This document shows positions 2,857-40,814 of a DNA stretch of 40,814 nucleotides, piece by piece (position 1 is the first letter of the stretch; each line of letters opens with the position of its first letter). Both the position numbers and the translations under genes were made by a program. Under the pieces are notes generated by a model. It ran no database searches. It saw only the letters and a list, made by a program, of their open reading frames with translations, and was not told the DNA's origin. The stretch comes from Acidobacteriota bacterium (GTDB lineage: Bacteria > Acidobacteriota > Thermoanaerobaculia > UBA5066 > Gp7-AA6), in assembly GCA_003222385.1 (NCBI GenBank), contig QHVV01000080.1, positions 20,129 to 60,942 of the forward strand. Reading direction: 5' to 3'.

Positions 2857-4500
2857 TCAGCTGGCAGCGCGGTCGAGCGCCAGGAGCTGTTCCGCCCGAT
2901 CGAGGTTTCCCCGGGCCGCGGCCGGAGGCGTCTCGAGCGACAGCGACTTGTGCAGAGCTTCGACCGAGCCGGCGAAGTCGGCCCGGCGCATCCGGACGAC
3001 GCCCAGGTCGTTCCAGAGCACCGCCGACTTCGGGCTCGCCTCGAGCGCCTGGACGAGCGCCGCCTCCGCCTCCGCGAACTTTCCGGAGTCCGCCAGCGCC
3101 GCGGCGAGGCCGCTCGCCGCCTCCTCGTTGCCCGGCTCGGCCTCGAGAGCCGAAGCGTAGGCCGCGCGCGCCTCCTCGACGTTCTTCCGCTCCGTCCTCA
3201 TGTGCCCGACGGCCGACCAGAGACCCGCGGTCGGCGGCCCGAGGCGCGCGGCTTCCGCCAGCTCCTGCTCGGCTTCCTTCTGCGATCCCTTTTTCCGGTA
3301 AGCCCGGCCGAGGTTCTCGTGGTACGCTCCCTCCTGCGGCTTGAGCTTCACGGCCTCCGAGAAGTGCTGGATCGCCTGATCCACGTCGCCCGCGCGGTAG
3401 AGCAGAACGCCGAAGTCGTTGTGCGCCTCGGGAAAGGTCGCATCGATTTCGATAGCGCGCCCGTACGCCAGCCGTGCCCCGCTCGTGTCGCCCGCGGCGT
3501 CGAGCGACCGCCCGAGGCCCGTCGCGGCGGCGAGATTGTGCGCATCGAGCTCGAGCGCGCGGCGATAGTGGCTCGCCGCCGTGTTCCACTTCTTCTGCTG
3601 CTCGGCGATCCGCGCGAGCCCGAACTCCGCCCGGCCGTTCGAAGCATCGAGAACGACGGCGGCCGTGAACTCGCGCTCCGCGTCCGCCTCCTGGCCTCCG
3701 GCGGCCGCGATCTCGCCCAGGAGACGGTGCGCCTCGGCGCTCCGGGGGTCGAGGTCCGCCGCGCGGCGCGCGTGCGTCGTGGCGCCGGCGAGGTCGCCCG
3801 CTTTCAACGCCTTGTCGGAGGCGTCCAAGAGCGGCAACACGTTGACGCCCGGCTCGATCGGCGTGGGGCCGGTTCCGGCAGGCGCTCCGGAGATCGGCGA
3901 CGAGGTCACGAGGCCCTTCTGCAGGTCGGACGCCCGCTTCCGGGCAGCGTCGGACTCGGCGGAACGGCCCAGCTTTTCGTACGCCTCGGCCAGGAGGAGC
4001 TGGACTTCCGGATCGTTCGAGCCGGCCGCCGTCTTCAAGTCGCCGATCGCTTCCTCCATCTTCCCGTCCGACATCTTTCGCCGCGCGCTCCGTTTCAGCT
4101 CCTTGAGCTCCGAAGGGCCGAGCAACGGCGTCGTCCCCCCGATCTCCGCCCGAACCGCCTGCGCCAGCCGCGCGAAATCCGGGCTGTAGAGATCGCCGAT
4201 CACGACGAGGTCCGGCCGCGCCGAGTAGGCGGCCTTCAGGTTGTCGCGCGCGCTCTTCGAATTCCCCGCGATGTAGAACGCCCACGCGCTGTTCAGATAC
4301 AGATCCGCCTTGCGGTCCGCGGGCGCGTCGGCGGAATCGGCGGCGCGAGCGTATTTTTCAGCGGCCTCCTTGAAGCGGCCGGAGTCGAATGCCCGCTTCG
4401 CCTCGGCCTCGAGCCTCTCGGCGTTCTGCGCGAACGCGATCGCGGCCGCGAGCAGAAGACCCGCGAGCCCGGCCAGCGCGCGGATCGCGCGGGGTCTCAC
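2857..4500 (-). CDS. secreted tetratricopeptide repeat protein (~547 aa)
   Basis: GTG 4500 overlaps the kinase stop codon. Signal peptide ends ...AIAFA-Q, followed by many TPR units (EAHNDFGVLLY, YHENLGRAY, LWNDLGVV). The upstream part of the 1118-aa ORF is a shadow frame. Confidence 0.85.
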   Translation of the reverse strand: MRPRAIRALAGLAGLLLAAAIAFAQNAERLEAEAKRAFDSGRFKEAAEKYARAADSADAPADRKADLYLNSAWAFYIAGNSKSARDNLKAAYSARPDLVVIGDLYSPDFARLAQAVRAEIGGTTPLLGPSELKELKRSARRKMSDGKMEEAIGDLKTAAGSNDPEVQLLLAEAYEKLGRSAESDAARKRASDLQKGLVTSSPISGAPAGTGPTPIEPGVNVLPLLDASDKALKAGDLAGATTHARRAADLDPRSAEAHRLLGEIAAAGGQEADAEREFTAAVVLDASNGRAEFGLARIAEQQKKWNTAASHYRRALELDAHNLAAATGLGRSLDAAGDTSGARLAYGRAIEIDATFPEAHNDFGVLLYRAGDVDQAIQHFSEAVKLKPQEGAYHENLGRAYRKKGSQKEAEQELAEAARLGPPTAGLWSAVGHMRTERKNVEEARAAYASALEAEPGNEEAASGLAAALADSGKFAEAEAALVQALEASPKSAVLWNDLGVVRMRRADFAGSVEALHKSLSLETPPAAARGNLDRAEQLLALDRAAS

Positions 4501-38097: not shown

Positions 38098-40380
38098 TCA
38101 GGTCCGCAGGCGCGCGAGCAGGAAGGCCGCGCCGGTCGAGAACAGGACGTGCGGTGACCAGGCGGCGAGCGGGGGAGGCAGGGCTCCGACGTCTCCCAGC
38201 TTCGAGAAGAGGGCGCTCGCGATCAGGAAGACCATCCCGAGCACGAGCCCCACTCCGATTCCGGCGAGCGTCCCGCGCCTGCCGATCCGGAACGCGAAGG
38301 GGATCCCGAGCAGAGCCATCAGGGGAACGAGCAGCGGCCGCGCGATCTTCGACTGGAGCGCTGTCTCCAGCGAGGCCGTCGGGTATCCGCTCCGCTGGAG
38401 CCGCCGCGTGAAGCGCTGGAGCTCGCGGAACCGCATCTCCTCGGGGGTCCGGTGTTCGGCGGAGAACGCCGGGGGCGGATCGCCCGCCGTCCTCTCTTCC
38501 AGGAACGTCGCGAAGGAGATCGTCTCGCCTCCCGAGAGCTCCCGCGTCCAGCCCTGCCGGAGAACCCAGGTCCGTGAGTCGGCGTCCCACGTCGCTTCAC
38601 GCGCGGACGTCCGTCGCACCAGGTCGAACTCCCGGTCGAACTGATAGATCGACGGCGAGGCGAGCGCTCGCCCGGCCTCGCTCTCCTCGCGGTGCCAGAT
38701 CCGACCGTCGCGCGCGTAATACCAGTTCCGCTCGGAGGGCGTCCGCAGCTTCCAGTCGGCGGGATGTCCCGCGATCCGGTTGCGATAGCGGATCTCCTTC
38801 TGCTTGGCGATCGGGAGGGCATATTCGCCGATCGAGAAGGCGAGGAGCGCGCCGACCGCGGCTGCCACGAAGATCGGCGCTCCGAGACGACGGACCGAAA
38901 CGCCGCCCGCCTTGAAAGCCGTGTCCTCGTTGTTCCTGGAGAAGATCCCGAGGCTGACGAGGGTCGCGATGAGGACGGCGAACGGCGCCAGCTCCATCGC
39001 GATCGACAGGAGAAAAGCCTGGTAGTACCCGACGACCACGACTCCGGGCGGCTTGTTCGTCAGGATCTCGTCCGCCTTGTCCGAATAGTCGACGACGACC
39101 GAAAGGAGGAGGACCGATGCGAAAACGTAGAGGAGCGTCGAGAAGAAGCGGGCGAGCACGTACCGATCCATCAGAGCCGGAAACCGCAGGATCCCGCCGA
39201 GCCAGGCGCGGCGGGAGGATTCCACCGCGGCGGCGGGGGCTCCGCGGCGCCGGAGCTTCCAGGTCCACCGGCCGCGCTCCTTCCCGGAGCGCCGCGCTGC
39301 GACGAGACCGAGCCCGATCAGCACGAGGTTGGGGAGCCACATGGCAAGCGCCGGGCTCATCCTTCCGTCCTCGGCCCACGACTCTCCGTTGGAAATCAGG
39401 ACGTAGTACACGACCAGGATCGCGAGAGAGATCGCGAAGCCGCTGCCCTTTCCGCCGCGGCGAAACGTGTCGGCGAGCGGGATGCCGACGAACGCAAAGG
39501 CGAAGCACGCGAACGGAATCGAGAACTTCTTGTGGATCTCGACGAGCGCCAGGCGGCGTCTCTCCGGGGACACGTTGCGCTGCCGGACGACCTGGAGGAG
39601 CTCCGGCAGCGACTGGGCGCGCAGACCCTTCTCGTAGGTGATTCGCGACTGGACGGCCTCCTCGATGTCCTCGGAAAAAAGGATCCGCTGGAACTCGTTG
39701 CGATTCGTGCGATAGCGCGACGGATTGGCGGGATCGACGTCGTGGACGACCGAAGCGAAGAGGTCGAGCCAGAGCCGGCCGTGATCGAGCGCGAGCGCAC
39801 CCCGGCGGGCGACGATGACCCGGTCGTTCCTCTCGTCGTCCTCGCCGAGCTTCAGGAAGACTCCCTCGAAAGACCGGCCGTCGACACCGATGCGGTCGAA
39901 GAAAAGCGTGACCCCGGCTCGCGGCTCGCGAAAGGTCCGGGGCTCGACGAGGTTGACGACCGAGGTCGCCGCGAGCCGTGCCATCGACCTCGTCAGCGCT
40001 TCGTTCGCTCGGGGCAGCACGAGGTTGTAGAAGAGAAACACCCCGGCCGAGAGAAGTGCCGCGGCGCCGAGCGCCGGCCGGTAAACAGCCCAGGGGCCCA
40101 CGCCGCAGGACCGCATCGCGACGAGCTCCGAGTCGCCCGAGAGCCGTCCGATCCCGATCAGGACCCCGAGCAGGAACGCCATCGGCAGCGTCAGCACGAG
40201 AATCCACGGAATCGATAGGAGAACGAGCCAGCCGACCTCGGAAAGCGATGCGCTGCGCCGCACAAAGAACTCCGTCATCAGGAAGATCGTCCGCACGAGC
40301 AGGATGAACGTGTAGGCCGCGAACCCCAGCAGGAACGGCGGCCAGATCTCTCGGACGACGGACCGGGAGAGGAGCCTCAT
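38098..40380 (-). CDS. lptFG: fused LPS export permease LptF-LptG
   Basis: Two tandem LptF/G modules: GRLSGDSELVAM..EIHKKFSIP..WLPN, then MDRYV..SRNNEDTAFKAGG..AWSP. Confidence 0.9.
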   Translation of the reverse strand: MRLLSRSVVREIWPPFLLGFAAYTFILLVRTIFLMTEFFVRRSASLSEVGWLVLLSIPWILVLTLPMAFLLGVLIGIGRLSGDSELVAMRSCGVGPWAVYRPALGAAALLSAGVFLFYNLVLPRANEALTRSMARLAATSVVNLVEPRTFREPRAGVTLFFDRIGVDGRSFEGVFLKLGEDDERNDRVIVARRGALALDHGRLWLDLFASVVHDVDPANPSRYRTNRNEFQRILFSEDIEEAVQSRITYEKGLRAQSLPELLQVVRQRNVSPERRRLALVEIHKKFSIPFACFAFAFVGIPLADTFRRGGKGSGFAISLAILVVYYVLISNGESWAEDGRMSPALAMWLPNLVLIGLGLVAARRSGKERGRWTWKLRRRGAPAAAVESSRRAWLGGILRFPALMDRYVLARFFSTLLYVFASVLLLSVVVDYSDKADEILTNKPPGVVVVGYYQAFLLSIAMELAPFAVLIATLVSLGIFSRNNEDTAFKAGGVSVRRLGAPIFVAAAVGALLAFSIGEYALPIAKQKEIRYRNRIAGHPADWKLRTPSERNWYYARDGRIWHREESEAGRALASPSIYQFDREFDLVRRTSAREATWDADSRTWVLRQGWTRELSGGETISFATFLEERTAGDPPPAFSAEHRTPEEMRFRELQRFTRRLQRSGYPTASLETALQSKIARPLLVPLMALLGIPFAFRIGRRGTLAGIGVGLVLGMVFLIASALFSKLGDVGALPPPLAAWSPHVLFSTGAAFLLARLRT

Positions 40381-40509
40381 CGCGAGAGAAGCCTCCGCGG
40401 TGGATGGCCGAGAGTCAAGGGGACCGCCGGGGAAGGGTTTCCGGGCCGGGGTCTGCCGGTCGCGCGGCCCCAATTCGAGCCATCGACAACGTCCGATAGC
40501 CGATCCGTA

Positions 40510-40537
40510 ATGTCTGATAAGATAGATTATGTAAAAT
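40510..40537. other. dif-like XerC/XerD recombination site
   Basis: ATGTCTGATAA-GATAGA-TTATGTAAAAT: 11-6-11 layout with inner ATAA/TTAT. The right arm differs by one base from the E. coli XerD arm TTATGTTAAAT. It is an AT-rich island in intergenic DNA. Confidence 0.88.
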
Positions 40538-40549
40538 CACGGTCGGGGC

Positions 40550-40814
40550 TCAGCCGAACTCGTCCGATTCGGGATCCCAGAAAGGCCCCTCGAGCCCGAT
40601 TCCCGCGAAGATCCGGCGGATCTCGTCGGGCTGCGGCCGGCGCGCGCCGGGCGTCAGCCGGGTGTCGTACCAGGCCACGGCGCGGCGCCACAGCTGGTCG
40701 AGCGAAAGGATCGGTCGCCTCGGGATCCCGCGCTCCCGGCACCAGGCGCCCACGCTTTCCTCCGACCGGAAGATCGTGCTTCAGGTGTAGACGAGGTCCG
40801 CCCACCACTTCGCG
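40550..40814 (-). CDS. 3' part of a MerB-like (organomercurial lyase family) protein with in-frame UGA, probable selenoprotein; 5' end outside the window
   Basis: Minus frame reads AKWWADLVYT-UGA-STIFRSEESVGAWC...LDQLWRRAVAWYDTRL...IFAGIGLEGPFW; UGA at 40783-40781. Confidence 0.75.
40751..40778 (-). promoter_or_regulatory. candidate bacterial SECIS hairpin
   Basis: Just 3' of the UGA: CACG-A-UCUUCC-[GGUC]-GGAGGA-AAG-CGUG, a two-part stem with a G-led apical loop. Confidence 0.55.

What the first reader, a model, noticed from the sequence alone, without database searches (positions are those of the whole stretch)
40550..40814. Hidden MerB-like selenoprotein: in-frame UGA at the catalytic Cys position plus a SECIS-like hairpin
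Seen: the 67-aa ORF in the track is only the tail of a longer frame. Upstream it continues as ...AKWWADLVYT*STIFRSEESV..., with a single TGA (40783-40781) followed at once by a stem-loop with a GGUC loop, reminiscent of the E. coli fdhF SECIS loop (AGGUCU). Known: in MerB the second catalytic cysteine (Cys159) sits in a D-x-x-x-x-F-C-x-x-x-x-F-F-x-S context that resembles this segment, and Sec-containing MerB-like families have been reported. Inference: a Sec-dependent organometal lyase of unknown substrate that annotation would split in two, with no mer genes on this side. Caveat: the loop starts only 13 nt after the UGA, shorter than usual SECIS spacing, so a small deletion or pseudogene is possible.
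Basis: partly seen in the sequence, partly recalled or inferred. Interest (0 to 1): 0.8.

Follow-up and report, generated by a model that had tools for sequence, protein, structure and literature searches.

The report
Split MerB-like selenoprotein gene, truncated
The end of this window holds the tail of a mercury-lyase-like gene whose catalytic cysteine is replaced by selenocysteine; the family is widespread in soil bacteria but databases cut it in two, and this copy also carries a small deletion that may cripple it.

Summary
On the minus strand, one frame runs from the window end, which is also the contig end, through one TGA (40783-40781) to the stop at 40552-40550. A 6-bp hairpin with a GGUC loop follows the TGA.

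Full-length relatives are about 225 aa and match Pfam MerB at 100-113 bits. Their fold matches only MerB structures. The TGA column aligns with MerB Cys159, and C-x-W-D aligns with Cys96/Asp99. The TGA was present in 80 of 80 loci from at least six phyla, in 12 close relatives and in 27 of 29 strong hits in the phylum. Other homologues carry Cys there.

The hairpin shows suppressed synonymous variation and compensatory changes: 97.4% of cells paired, 4 of 7 pairs covarying, 0 of 500 shuffles as high. The genome has selA, selB, Sec-selD and tRNA-Sec.

The family is neither canonical MerB nor the known MerB-like selenoprotein SaoL. It has a T-U motif instead of C-U, scores below both cut-offs, and has no conserved neighbours. 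Public databases hold it as 146-aa stumps.

The window copy alone lacks 6 nt between the UGA and the hairpin, so the spacing is 13 nt instead of 19. It may be impaired. Its N-terminal two thirds are not assembled.

The parts
40550..40814 (-). The 3' part of a MerB-family selenoprotein gene: the last 87 codons plus the stop, out of about 223. The gene is cut at its 5' side by the contig end.
   Evidence: Translation with TGA=U. The contig ends at the window end. Pfam MerB profile positions 76-125 of 126 match at E = 1.1e-3. The piece is collinear with residues 137-225 of the 225-aa relatives.
40781..40783 (-). In-frame TGA read as selenocysteine. It corresponds to MerB Cys159 and to U147 of the 225-aa relatives.
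   Evidence: The same column is TGA in 80 of 80 loci, in 12 relatives and in 27 of 29 strong phylum hits. Other homologues have Cys there. The profile alignment to PDB MerB places the column on Cys159.
40751..40778 (-). SECIS-like hairpin. The upper stem is UCUUCC/GGAGGA (40773-40768 with 40763-40758), the loop is GGUC (40767-40764), and the lower stem is CACG/CGUG.
   Evidence: RNAfold. The homologous upper stem in 108 distinct relatives is 97.4% paired, 4 of 7 pairs have compensatory changes, and 0 of 500 shuffles reach this. Synonymous sites are almost frozen.
40772..40774 (-). Junction of a 6-nt in-frame deletion. The family motif S-T-M-L-F-F-R becomes S-T-I-F-R. The deletion moves the hairpin 6 nt closer to the UGA.
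   Evidence: DNA alignment shows a 6-column gap only in the window row, out of 13 rows. All 108 distinct relatives align without any gap. MAFFT places a 2-residue gap in the protein. Contigs of runs X1 and X2 carry the deleted form.
40550..40552 (-). The true stop codon of the gene, also a TGA, 76 codons after the Sec codon.
   Evidence: In the 80 related loci the gene ends with TGA in 41, TAG in 20 and TAA in 19, so TGA is an ordinary stop elsewhere in the same genes.

Best explanation
Window 40550-40814 (minus strand) is the C-terminal third of a gene for a MerB-fold protein of about 223 aa. The second metal-binding catalytic residue, the equivalent of MerB Cys159, is selenocysteine. It is encoded by UGA at 40783-40781. 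Recoding is directed by a SECIS hairpin inside the coding sequence, formed by the codons for F-F-R-S-E-E, with a 7-bp stem and a GGUC loop. The organism's SelB would bind this hairpin and deliver Sec-tRNA(Sec).

By homology the enzyme would bind an organometal between Cys86 and Sec147. Asp89 would protonate the leaving carbon, so the enzyme would be a metal-carbon lyase. The substrate is unknown; methylmercury or another organomercurial is the default guess.

The gene belongs to a large clade that is almost always Sec-bearing and is spread across soil phyla. This clade is distinct from canonical MerB and from SaoL. It stands alone, outside mer or SAO operons, and gene callers split it at the UGA.

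Shown here: the homology, the fold, the Sec/Cys alternation, the conserved and covarying hairpin, and the Sec machinery. Inferred: actual Sec insertion, and the lyase chemistry and substrate.

The window's allele has a 6-nt in-frame deletion. It removes two residues three positions after Sec and shortens the distance from the UGA to the loop from 19 to 13 nt. I lean (about 55%) to the view that this allele inserts Sec poorly and is decaying. Its first ~137 codons are simply not assembled.
For: Homology and fold.
- The window fragment matches Pfam MerB.
- Full-length relatives score 100-113 bits against a cut-off of 27.
- The AF2 model has pLDDT 97. All 11 of its Foldseek PDB hits at E <= 1e-3 are MerB or MerB2.
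- The profile alignment puts the family's C-x-W-D on Cys96/Asp99 and the UGA column on Cys159.

Sec/Cys signature.
- The column is TGA in 80 of 80 loci, in 12 relatives plus the own genome, and in 27 of 29 strong hits among 401 phylum genomes.
- Other homologues have Cys.
- On the tree an 88-row clade with support 100 holds 86 rows with the single TGA and 2 rows with further stops (multi). Outside that clade Sec and Cys forms are interspersed.
- The same genes end in TGA 41 times, TAG 20 and TAA 19, so the recoding is position-specific.

RNA element.
- Codons +5 to +9 after the UGA are TTC 62/62, TTC 79/79, CGG 78/79, TCG 78/79 and GAA 69/79. The background in the same genes is 0.74, 0.34, 0.35 and 0.32.
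- Stem columns 16-22/27-33 are 97.4% paired in 108 distinct sequences. Four of 7 pairs and 34 cells have double changes, 0 of 500 shuffles reach this, and slid controls give 46-68%.
- There is no indel between the UGA and the hairpin in any of the 108 sequences.
- The family spacing of 19 nt lies within the published range of 16-37 nt (PMC10778597, passage read).

Sec machinery: selA, selB, selD with its own in-frame TGA, and tRNA-Sec.

Annotation split: 116 of the best 120 database proteins end exactly before the column. Fifty of the best 150 hits to the tail start at the Met three codons after it.
Against: - No experiment shows Sec insertion or lyase activity for any member.
- The window's own N-terminal part, with the Cys-x-x-Asp motif, is not in the assembly, so this copy could be a remnant.
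- The window hairpin sits 13 nt from the UGA, outside the 16-37 nt range, and no relative shares this spacing.
- A near-identical allele in another run carries a 2-nt insertion that shifts the frame (P0003). This hints at decay in this species.
- The single-sequence fold is not better than chance, and 12 close relatives alone gave no covariation.
- Much of the stem is also constrained by the conserved peptide F-R-S-E.
- No MerA above the cut-off was found in the genome and there is no conserved partner. It is therefore unclear how a tightly Se-bound metal product would be released.
Confidence: 0.85

Rival explanations
1. The window allele is a fully working selenoprotein gene. The 6-nt deletion would be a tolerated natural variant: the hairpin is intact, and this organism's SelB and ribosome would accept a 13-nt spacing.
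For: The deletion is in frame and keeps a 6-bp stem with the GGUC loop. The downstream frame is intact to the normal stop. The deleted form stands in contigs of two runs from two studies, so it is not obviously a one-off error. A second small hairpin lies about 30 nt downstream.
Against: None of 108 distinct relatives has any indel in these 48 nt. The spacing falls outside the 16-37 nt range. The deletion also removes two residues next to the active-site Sec. Either or both runs may be the source of this assembly.
Confidence: 0.35
2. The 6-nt deletion is an assembly artefact at a low-coverage contig end, and the organism has the normal sequence.
For: The site lies 41 nt from the contig end. 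Depth is only about 3.4-4.6. In run X5 the unitigs break exactly at the junction (40773), which suggests a variant there. A protein 96% identical (P0003) has the undeleted M-L-F-F.
Against: Record 4 of run X2 (1022 nt) spans 40200-40814 with 0 gaps and continues 243 nt further. Record 2 of run X1 spans 40574-40814 with 0 gaps.
Confidence: 0.1
3. The UGA is an ordinary stop. The family would be a split MerB-like gene that yields a 146-aa piece and a separately initiated piece of about 76 aa starting at the conserved ATG two codons after the stop. The hairpin would serve re-initiation or regulation.
For: An ATG is conserved at codon +3 in 78 of 79 loci. Gene callers predict both pieces.
Against: - The stop falls exactly on the catalytic Cys column of single-chain homologues, and these have Met or Ile at +3 as well.
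- Sec and Cys forms alternate on the tree.
- The hairpin has the position and G-rich loop of a bacterial SECIS.
- Sec machinery is present.
- A split would delete a residue that the cited literature treats as essential to MerB (PMC8261052, passages read).
Confidence: 0.04

Closest known systems
SaoL, the MerB-like organometallic lyase selenoprotein (NCBIfam NF040728; Haft & Gwadz, bioRxiv 10.1101/2022.07.06.499078; passages read)
   Same: Both belong to the Pfam MerB family. In both, Sec is encoded by UGA at the position that aligns with MerB Cys159. Both are routinely truncated at that codon in databases. Both keep the Cys96 and Asp99 equivalents.
   Different: SaoL has a C-U dipeptide, is about 213 aa with about 50 residues after the U, and is reported only from anaerobes. 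It marks a conserved nine-gene SAO locus. The family here has T-U (rarely N-U), is about 225 aa with 77-81 residues after the U in most loci, and comes mainly from soil MAGs of Acidobacteriota, Gemmatimonadota, Verrucomicrobiota, Eiseniibacteriota and Chloroflexota. It has no conserved neighbour. It scores 35-46 bits against SaoL's cut-off of 140, and only its N-terminal half aligns.
Organomercurial lyase MerB (plasmid R831b; PDB 3F0P, 3F2F and others) and MerB2 (PDB 5C17)
   Same: The fold is the same, with Foldseek TM 0.56-0.72. The sequence relation is significant: profile E = 4.5e-19 to MerB2 and about 1e-7 to MerB. The Cys96, Asp99, Cys117 and Cys159 columns are all occupied by equivalent residues.
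   Different: Position 159 is Sec instead of Cys. The family scores 64 and 59 bits against the NCBIfam MerB cut-offs of 193 and 200. There is no mer operon context and no MerA above the cut-off in this genome. It also has an extra C-terminal segment of about 40 residues ending in F-W-D-P.
Cys-containing MerB-like proteins (PF03243) of unknown function, about 225-240 aa
   Same: They are collinear over the full length at 29-39% identity, with the same W-W-D-D-V-x-x-T-[C/U]-x-T-x-L-L-F-R-S-E motif.
   Different: They have Cys, or in one case Trp, at the column. The two Cys forms inspected at the DNA level lack the stable hairpin (n = 2). One subgroup has C-x-W-C instead of C-x-W-D.
Bacterial SECIS as in E. 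coli fdhF (recalled; general description in PMC10778597)
   Same: It is a hairpin inside the ORF just downstream of the UGA, with G and U in a small apical loop. The family's UGA-to-loop distance of 19 nt lies within 16-37 nt.
   Different: The loop here is a GGUC tetraloop on a 7-bp stem. No bulged U was identified. No Rfam family matches. In the window copy the spacing is 13 nt.

Membership tests
Pfam MerB (PF03243) superfamily | HMM score above the gathering cut-off of 27 bits | tested here: met
   Full-length same-genus relatives score 112.7 and 109.2 bits, and G002 scores 100.4. The window fragment alone reaches 19.3 bits because only profile positions 76-125 are present.
Pfam MerB (PF03243) superfamily | MerB fold | tested here: met
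   The AF2 model of the G003 protein has pLDDT 97.0 and pTM 0.93. The 11 PDB hits at E <= 1e-3 are all MerB or MerB2, and the next hit has E = 0.12.
Pfam MerB (PF03243) superfamily | Catalytic triad Cys96 / Asp99 / Cys159 | tested here: met
   C86 and C147(U) are invariant and D89 is nearly invariant in 81 sequences. They align with C96, D99 and C159 of PDB 3f2g. In the window only the U column can be seen.
Canonical organomercurial lyase MerB (NF009710 / NF033555, EC 4.99.1.2) | Equivalog HMM score above the cut-off (193 / 200 bits) | tested here: not met
   The scores are 63.9 and 58.8 bits for P0152, and lower for P0153 and P0154.
Canonical organomercurial lyase MerB (NF009710 / NF033555, EC 4.99.1.2) | mer operon context (merA, merR, merT, merP nearby) | tested here: not met
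   No family recurs in more than 2 of 76 upstream or 4 of 74 downstream neighbours, and none of the listed families is a mer gene. Only the top 25 families per call were shown. MerA is below its cut-off in G000. A MerT-like hit lies on another contig.
Canonical organomercurial lyase MerB (NF009710 / NF033555, EC 4.99.1.2) | Protonolysis of Hg-C bonds | not testable with these tools
   This needs an enzyme assay.
SaoL (NF040728) | Equivalog HMM score above 140 bits | tested here: not met
   The scores are 43.1, 45.6 and 35.5 bits, and only model positions up to about 135 of 159 align.
SaoL (NF040728) | C-U dipeptide at the metal site | tested here: not met
   The residue before U is T in all 79 loci listed and in L065. 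It is N in L117 and L128 and S in L135. It is never C.
SaoL (NF040728) | Marker of the conserved nine-gene SAO neighbourhood | tested here: not met
   BLAST clustering of 2037 neighbouring ORFs gives a best non-self cluster in 7 of 79 loci, and the Pfam tallies agree. The Sao HMMs themselves were not run.
Bacterial selenoprotein gene | Conserved in-frame UGA with Cys in homologues at the same column | tested here: met
Bacterial selenoprotein gene | SECIS hairpin 16-37 nt (UGA to apical loop) downstream | tested here: inconclusive
   For the family this is met: the spacing is 19 nt and the stem covaries. For the window allele it is not met: the spacing is 13 nt after the 6-nt deletion.
Bacterial selenoprotein gene | selA, selB, selC and selD in the genome | tested here: met
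   selA scores 388.7 bits. The SelB wing domain scores 66.7 bits. selD scores 249.8 bits and has its own TGA. Two tRNA-Sec genes were found.
Bacterial selenoprotein gene | Selenium found in the protein | not testable with these tools
   This needs 75Se labelling or proteomics.

The most novel reading that the evidence does not exclude
This Sec-bearing MerB-like clade would be the missing mer-operon-independent organometal (for example methylmercury) lyase of ordinary soils. It would be a stand-alone, horizontally spread selenoenzyme in Acidobacteriota, Gemmatimonadota, Verrucomicrobiota, Eiseniibacteriota and Chloroflexota. Every merB survey would have missed it, because annotation stops at the UGA and the surveys require Cys159. 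Selenium would make it effective at trace substrate levels.
Probability: 0.2. Interest if true: 0.85.

Novelty: new variant of a known kind. Interest (0 to 1): 0.6.

Why it matters
MerB is the only known enzyme that cleaves Hg-C bonds. A 2025 paper states in its abstract that the microbes and pathways degrading methylmercury in soil remain elusive (PMC12130583; abstract start seen in the listing).

The large mer survey by Christakis et al. (PMC8261052; passages read) required Cys at position 159. It listed no MerB for Acidobacteria and one for Gemmatimonadetes, and it never mentions selenocysteine.

The clade found here has thousands of database entries: 2900 proteins at E <= 1e-20, and 116 of the best 120 are cut at the UGA. 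It sits in exactly those soil phyla. Recognising it would correct a systematic annotation error. It would add a second, independent MerB lineage that has recruited Sec at the same catalytic position as SaoL. It would also give a concrete candidate to test for organometal turnover in soils and for a link between selenium and mercury cycling.

For this particular window the yield is smaller. The copy is truncated by the assembly and carries a deletion that may disable recoding.

Tried and rejected
- Word-index search of the 88-aa fragment against longer proteins found nothing. The exhaustive HMMER search was needed.
- The missing N-terminal half was sought in the own genome. PF03243 hits only the window end. 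tblastn with 19 full-length homologues gives no other hit better than E = 0.017.
- The single-sequence fold gives z = 0.41, which is not evidence.
- RNAalifold on 12 close relatives gives only a 5-bp stem and 0 compensatory pairs. A wider sample was needed.
- Rfam at E <= 10 gives 0 matches.
- The selD SECIS of the same genome was folded for comparison. It is a weak 4-bp hairpin and was not informative.
It was repeated with the closer alignment A4.
- The search for conserved neighbours found none.
- SelA co-occurrence is uninformative because 55 of 61 relatives have SelA. Of the 13 genomes with the TGA form, 10 show SelA. The 3 without it are 75-92% complete.
- Parts of the stretch have no contig cover in runs X3 and X5. 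No conclusion was drawn from this.
- Supplementary tables of the cited papers could not be seen. They might list members of this clade.

Full report
**What is in the window.**

On the minus strand the ORF list shows a 67-aa ORF at 40550..40753. The same frame read from 40813 gives AKWWADLVYT, then a TGA at 40783-40781, then STIFRSEESVGAWC...DEFG and a stop at 40552-40550.

The window's last base is also the last base of contig C132 (60,942 bases) of a 3.6-Mb assembly in 231 contigs. The gene is therefore cut 31 nt upstream of the TGA. With C in place of U, the 88-residue piece matches the C-terminal part of Pfam MerB: profile positions 76-125 of 126, E = 1.1e-3, 19.3 bits. This is below the 27-bit cut-off, as expected for a fragment.

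No other MerB-like stretch exists in the assembly. tblastn with 19 full-length homologues finds no N-terminal half elsewhere. That part is simply not assembled.

**Relatives show a complete gene with the same TGA.**

An exhaustive HMMER search gave 357 proteins at E <= 1e-3. The best 150 fall into four groups:
- 50 are short ORFs that start at a Met three codons after the TGA column.
- 28 are longer proteins that span the column with Cys.
- 1 spans the column with Trp.
- 71 are other partial pieces.

Six-frame searches of 61 related genomes found matches in 16. Twelve relatives plus the own genome have exactly one in-frame TGA. One genome (G044) has a Cys form.

In four same-genus genomes the ORF is 225-226 aa. 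It carries A-N-C-S/C-W-D near residue 86 and W-W-A-D-L-V-Y-T-U-S/A-T-M-L-F-F-R-S-E around residue 147.

A scan of one genome per species found 499 relatives. The best 80 loci were kept, and all 80 have TGA at this column. Their record titles name Acidobacteriota (many Thermoanaerobaculia), Gemmatimonadota, Eiseniibacteriota, Verrucomicrobiota, Chloroflexota and Planctomycetota. Single bins are labelled Omnitrophota and Patescibacteria.

In a sample of 401 genomes of the window's phylum, 37 have a match at E <= 1e-10. Of the 29 strong full-length matches, 27 have one TGA and 2 have none. Those 2 are Cys forms of a C-x-W-C subgroup.

The same 80 genes terminate with TGA in 41 cases, TAG in 20 and TAA in 19. 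One of the 41 TGA ends is L092's premature TGA 14 codons after the Sec codon. TGA is therefore not reassigned globally; it is read through only at this position.

Two of the genomes used (G025 and G210) are flagged unpublished. They contribute 1 of the 12 relatives and 1 of the 27 phylum hits, and no conclusion depends on them.

**It is a MerB-fold protein with Sec at the Cys159 position.**

Full-length relatives score 100-113 bits on Pfam MerB. A profile of the family finds MerB2 (5c17, E = 4.5e-19) and MerB (3f2g, 3fn8, 1s6l, 5c0t, E = 2e-7 to 6e-6) among solved structures. The printed alignment places the family's C-a-w-d on Cys96..Asp99 and the TGA column on Cys159 (numbering counted from the printed chain positions).

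An AlphaFold2 model built on 81 sequences has pLDDT 97.0 and pTM 0.93. Its only significant PDB matches are 11 MerB or MerB2 chains with TM 0.47-0.72 (0.56-0.72 for the ten crystal-structure chains), and the next hit has E = 0.12.

In the 81-sequence alignment, C86, H131, P135, C147(U), W162 and W186 are invariant, and N85, W88 and D89 are nearly so.

**The hairpin is a conserved RNA element.**

In the window alone it folds as predicted, but no better than shuffled sequence (z = 0.41). Twelve close relatives gave no covariation. The wider sample is decisive.

Across 79 loci the codons +5 to +9 after the UGA are almost frozen at synonymous sites:

| Codon | Count | Background share in the same genes |
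|---|---|---|
| TTC (+5) | 62/62 | 0.74 |
| TTC (+6) | 79/79 | 0.74 |
| CGG (+7) | 78/79 | 0.34 |
| TCG (+8) | 78/79 | 0.35 |
| GAA (+9) | 69/79 | 0.32 |

Flanking codons vary freely.

In 108 distinct 48-nt sequences, which align without a single gap, the 7-bp stem (columns 16-22 with 27-33, loop GGUC) is paired in 97.4% of 756 cells. Four of 7 pairs carry compensatory double changes, in 34 cells. None of 500 shuffles reaches any of the five measures. Slid controls give 46-68% pairing and at most 5 such cells.

The covariation reaches into the protein. The residues at +5 and +10 change together: F/E, L/E, L/Q (CUG/CAG), S/A (AGC/GCC), C/A and A/G (GCC/GGC). The closing C-G becomes A-U in two loci where R-S becomes R-N or uses AGG-AGU. 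The two Cys forms inspected at the DNA level lack a comparable stem (n = 2, so this is weak).

The loop begins 19 nt after the UGA, inside the 16-37 nt range given for bacterial SECIS elements (PMC10778597, passage read). Rfam has no matching family.

**The organism can make selenoproteins.**

The genome has the following:
- selA at 388.7 bits
- a SelB winged-helix domain at 66.7 bits
- selD at 249.8 bits, with its own in-frame TGA in the motif ...A-G-U-A-C-K...
- two different tRNA-Sec genes

SelA is present in 55 of 61 relatives, so the trait is general in this order.

**What is peculiar to this copy.**

All 12 relatives and all 108 distinct sequences have S-T-M-L-F-F-R after the U. The window has S-T-I-F-R. 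This is a 6-nt in-frame deletion with its junction at 40772-40774. The hairpin survives with 6 bp, but its loop now starts 13 nt after the UGA.

Contigs of two soil-metagenome runs from two studies carry the deleted form without gaps. Record 4 of run X2 spans 40200-40814 and runs 243 nt further. Record 2 of run X1 spans 40574-40814. Either run may be the source of this assembly.

A third run (X5) shows a CG insertion behind 40626, which shifts the frame. This is the same lesion as in library protein P0003, which is 96% identical and has the undeleted M-L-F-F. In X5 the unitigs break exactly at the deletion junction.

So near-identical populations hold two different lesions. This suggests, but does not prove, that the gene is decaying in this species.

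From recalled work on E. coli fdhF, the distance between the UGA and the SelB-binding stem-loop is critical. A stem starting 7 nt after the UGA would lie inside the ribosome's mRNA channel when the UGA reaches the A site. This is inference, not a test.

**How it most likely works.**

By homology to MerB, the substrate's metal is bound by Cys86 and Sec147, and Asp89 protonates the carbon leaving group. Sec would raise nucleophilicity and affinity for soft metals. How the product is released is open. No MerA above the cut-off is present. No partner gene is conserved: the best non-self cluster occurs in 7 of 79 loci, and Pfam families recur in at most 2 of 76 upstream and 4 of 74 downstream neighbours. 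Same-genus loci share the window's downstream fused LptF/LptG permease gene.

**Comparison with what is known.**

A MerB-like selenoprotein, SaoL, has been described (bioRxiv 10.1101/2022.07.06.499078; passages read). It has a C-U dipeptide, is about 213 aa, is found only in anaerobes, and marks a nine-gene SAO locus. Two reviews list only SaoL under MerB (PMC9312934 and PMC13188914; table passages read).

The present family scores 35-46 bits against SaoL's 140-bit cut-off, and 64 and 59 bits against the two MerB equivalog cut-offs of 193 and 200. It has T-U (rarely N-U or S-U), a longer tail, other taxa and no conserved locus.

On a FastTree of 128 rows, an 88-row clade (support 100) holds 86 Sec rows and 2 rows with further stops, and mixes phyla. 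This points to horizontal spread. Outside that clade Sec and Cys forms are interspersed, needing at least 8 changes by parsimony, of which 3 are forced by well-supported branches. The root is only a midpoint root, and several long branches are flagged.

**Novelty in print.**

Three full-text searches (selenoprotein + MerB; selenocysteine + alkylmercury lyase; organomercurial lyase + selenocysteine) found no paper on a MerB-like selenoprotein other than the SaoL work and the reviews. The SaoL preprint does not mention Acidobacteria, Gemmatimonadetes or Verrucomicrobia. The library lacks most subscription journals and supplements were closed, so an earlier mention cannot be excluded.

In public protein sets the family is present as stumps. 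Of 2900 proteins at E <= 1e-20, 116 of the best 120 end exactly before the column. Where a source gives a name, it is 'hypothetical protein', 'alkylmercury lyase(-like)' or 'organomercurial lyase'.

**Verdict.**

I file it as a new variant of a known kind: a second MerB lineage with Sec at the Cys159 position. The window's own copy is an assembly-truncated allele that carries a deletion and may be impaired.

Noticed in passing
G000 contig C76:2899-3829 (outside the window): selD carries an in-frame TGA (motif A-G-U-A-C-K), so SelD is itself a selenoprotein here. The match is split into two pieces in different frames near 3471-3518, which means a frameshift or an assembly error.
   Followed up: partly
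G000 contigs C72:3346-3446 (-) and C104:2416-2513 (+): ARAGORN calls two different tRNA-Sec genes with unlike acceptor stems. C72 is only 3.6 kb, so it may be a second true copy or a contaminating contig.
   Followed up: partly
G000 contig C154:50224-50484 (-): A MerT-like domain scores above the Pfam cut-off (52.4 bits against 32.9) inside a 314-aa open frame. No MerA above the cut-off exists in the genome.
   Followed up: no
window 38098-40473 (-): A 791-aa ORF lies directly downstream of the MerB-like gene. Its counterparts in same-genus loci (L027, L028) match LptF_LptG twice, so it is a fused LptF/LptG permease. This synteny is shared only within the genus.
   Followed up: partly
L092:4442-4489 (Caldilineaceae MAG); L094; proteins P0156, P0158: Decayed or altered members of the Sec clade. 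L092 has a second TGA at the conserved Trp of E-W-C. L094 has a changed tail. P0156 has Trp at the Sec column. P0158 has Gly at the Sec column and Ser at the Cys86 column, so both metal ligands are lost.
   Followed up: no
window 40626 (run X5) and library protein P0003: A near-identical allele in another soil run has a CG insertion that shifts the frame of the last ~25 codons. Together with the window's 6-nt deletion, this makes two independent lesions in one species-level population.
   Followed up: partly
loci L027-L106, tree: The Sec clade does not follow phylum boundaries. For example, Verrucomicrobiota, Eiseniibacteriota, Acidobacteriota and Chloroflexota rows are interleaved at 50-77% identity. 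This suggests repeated horizontal transfer of a stand-alone selenoprotein gene.
   Followed up: partly
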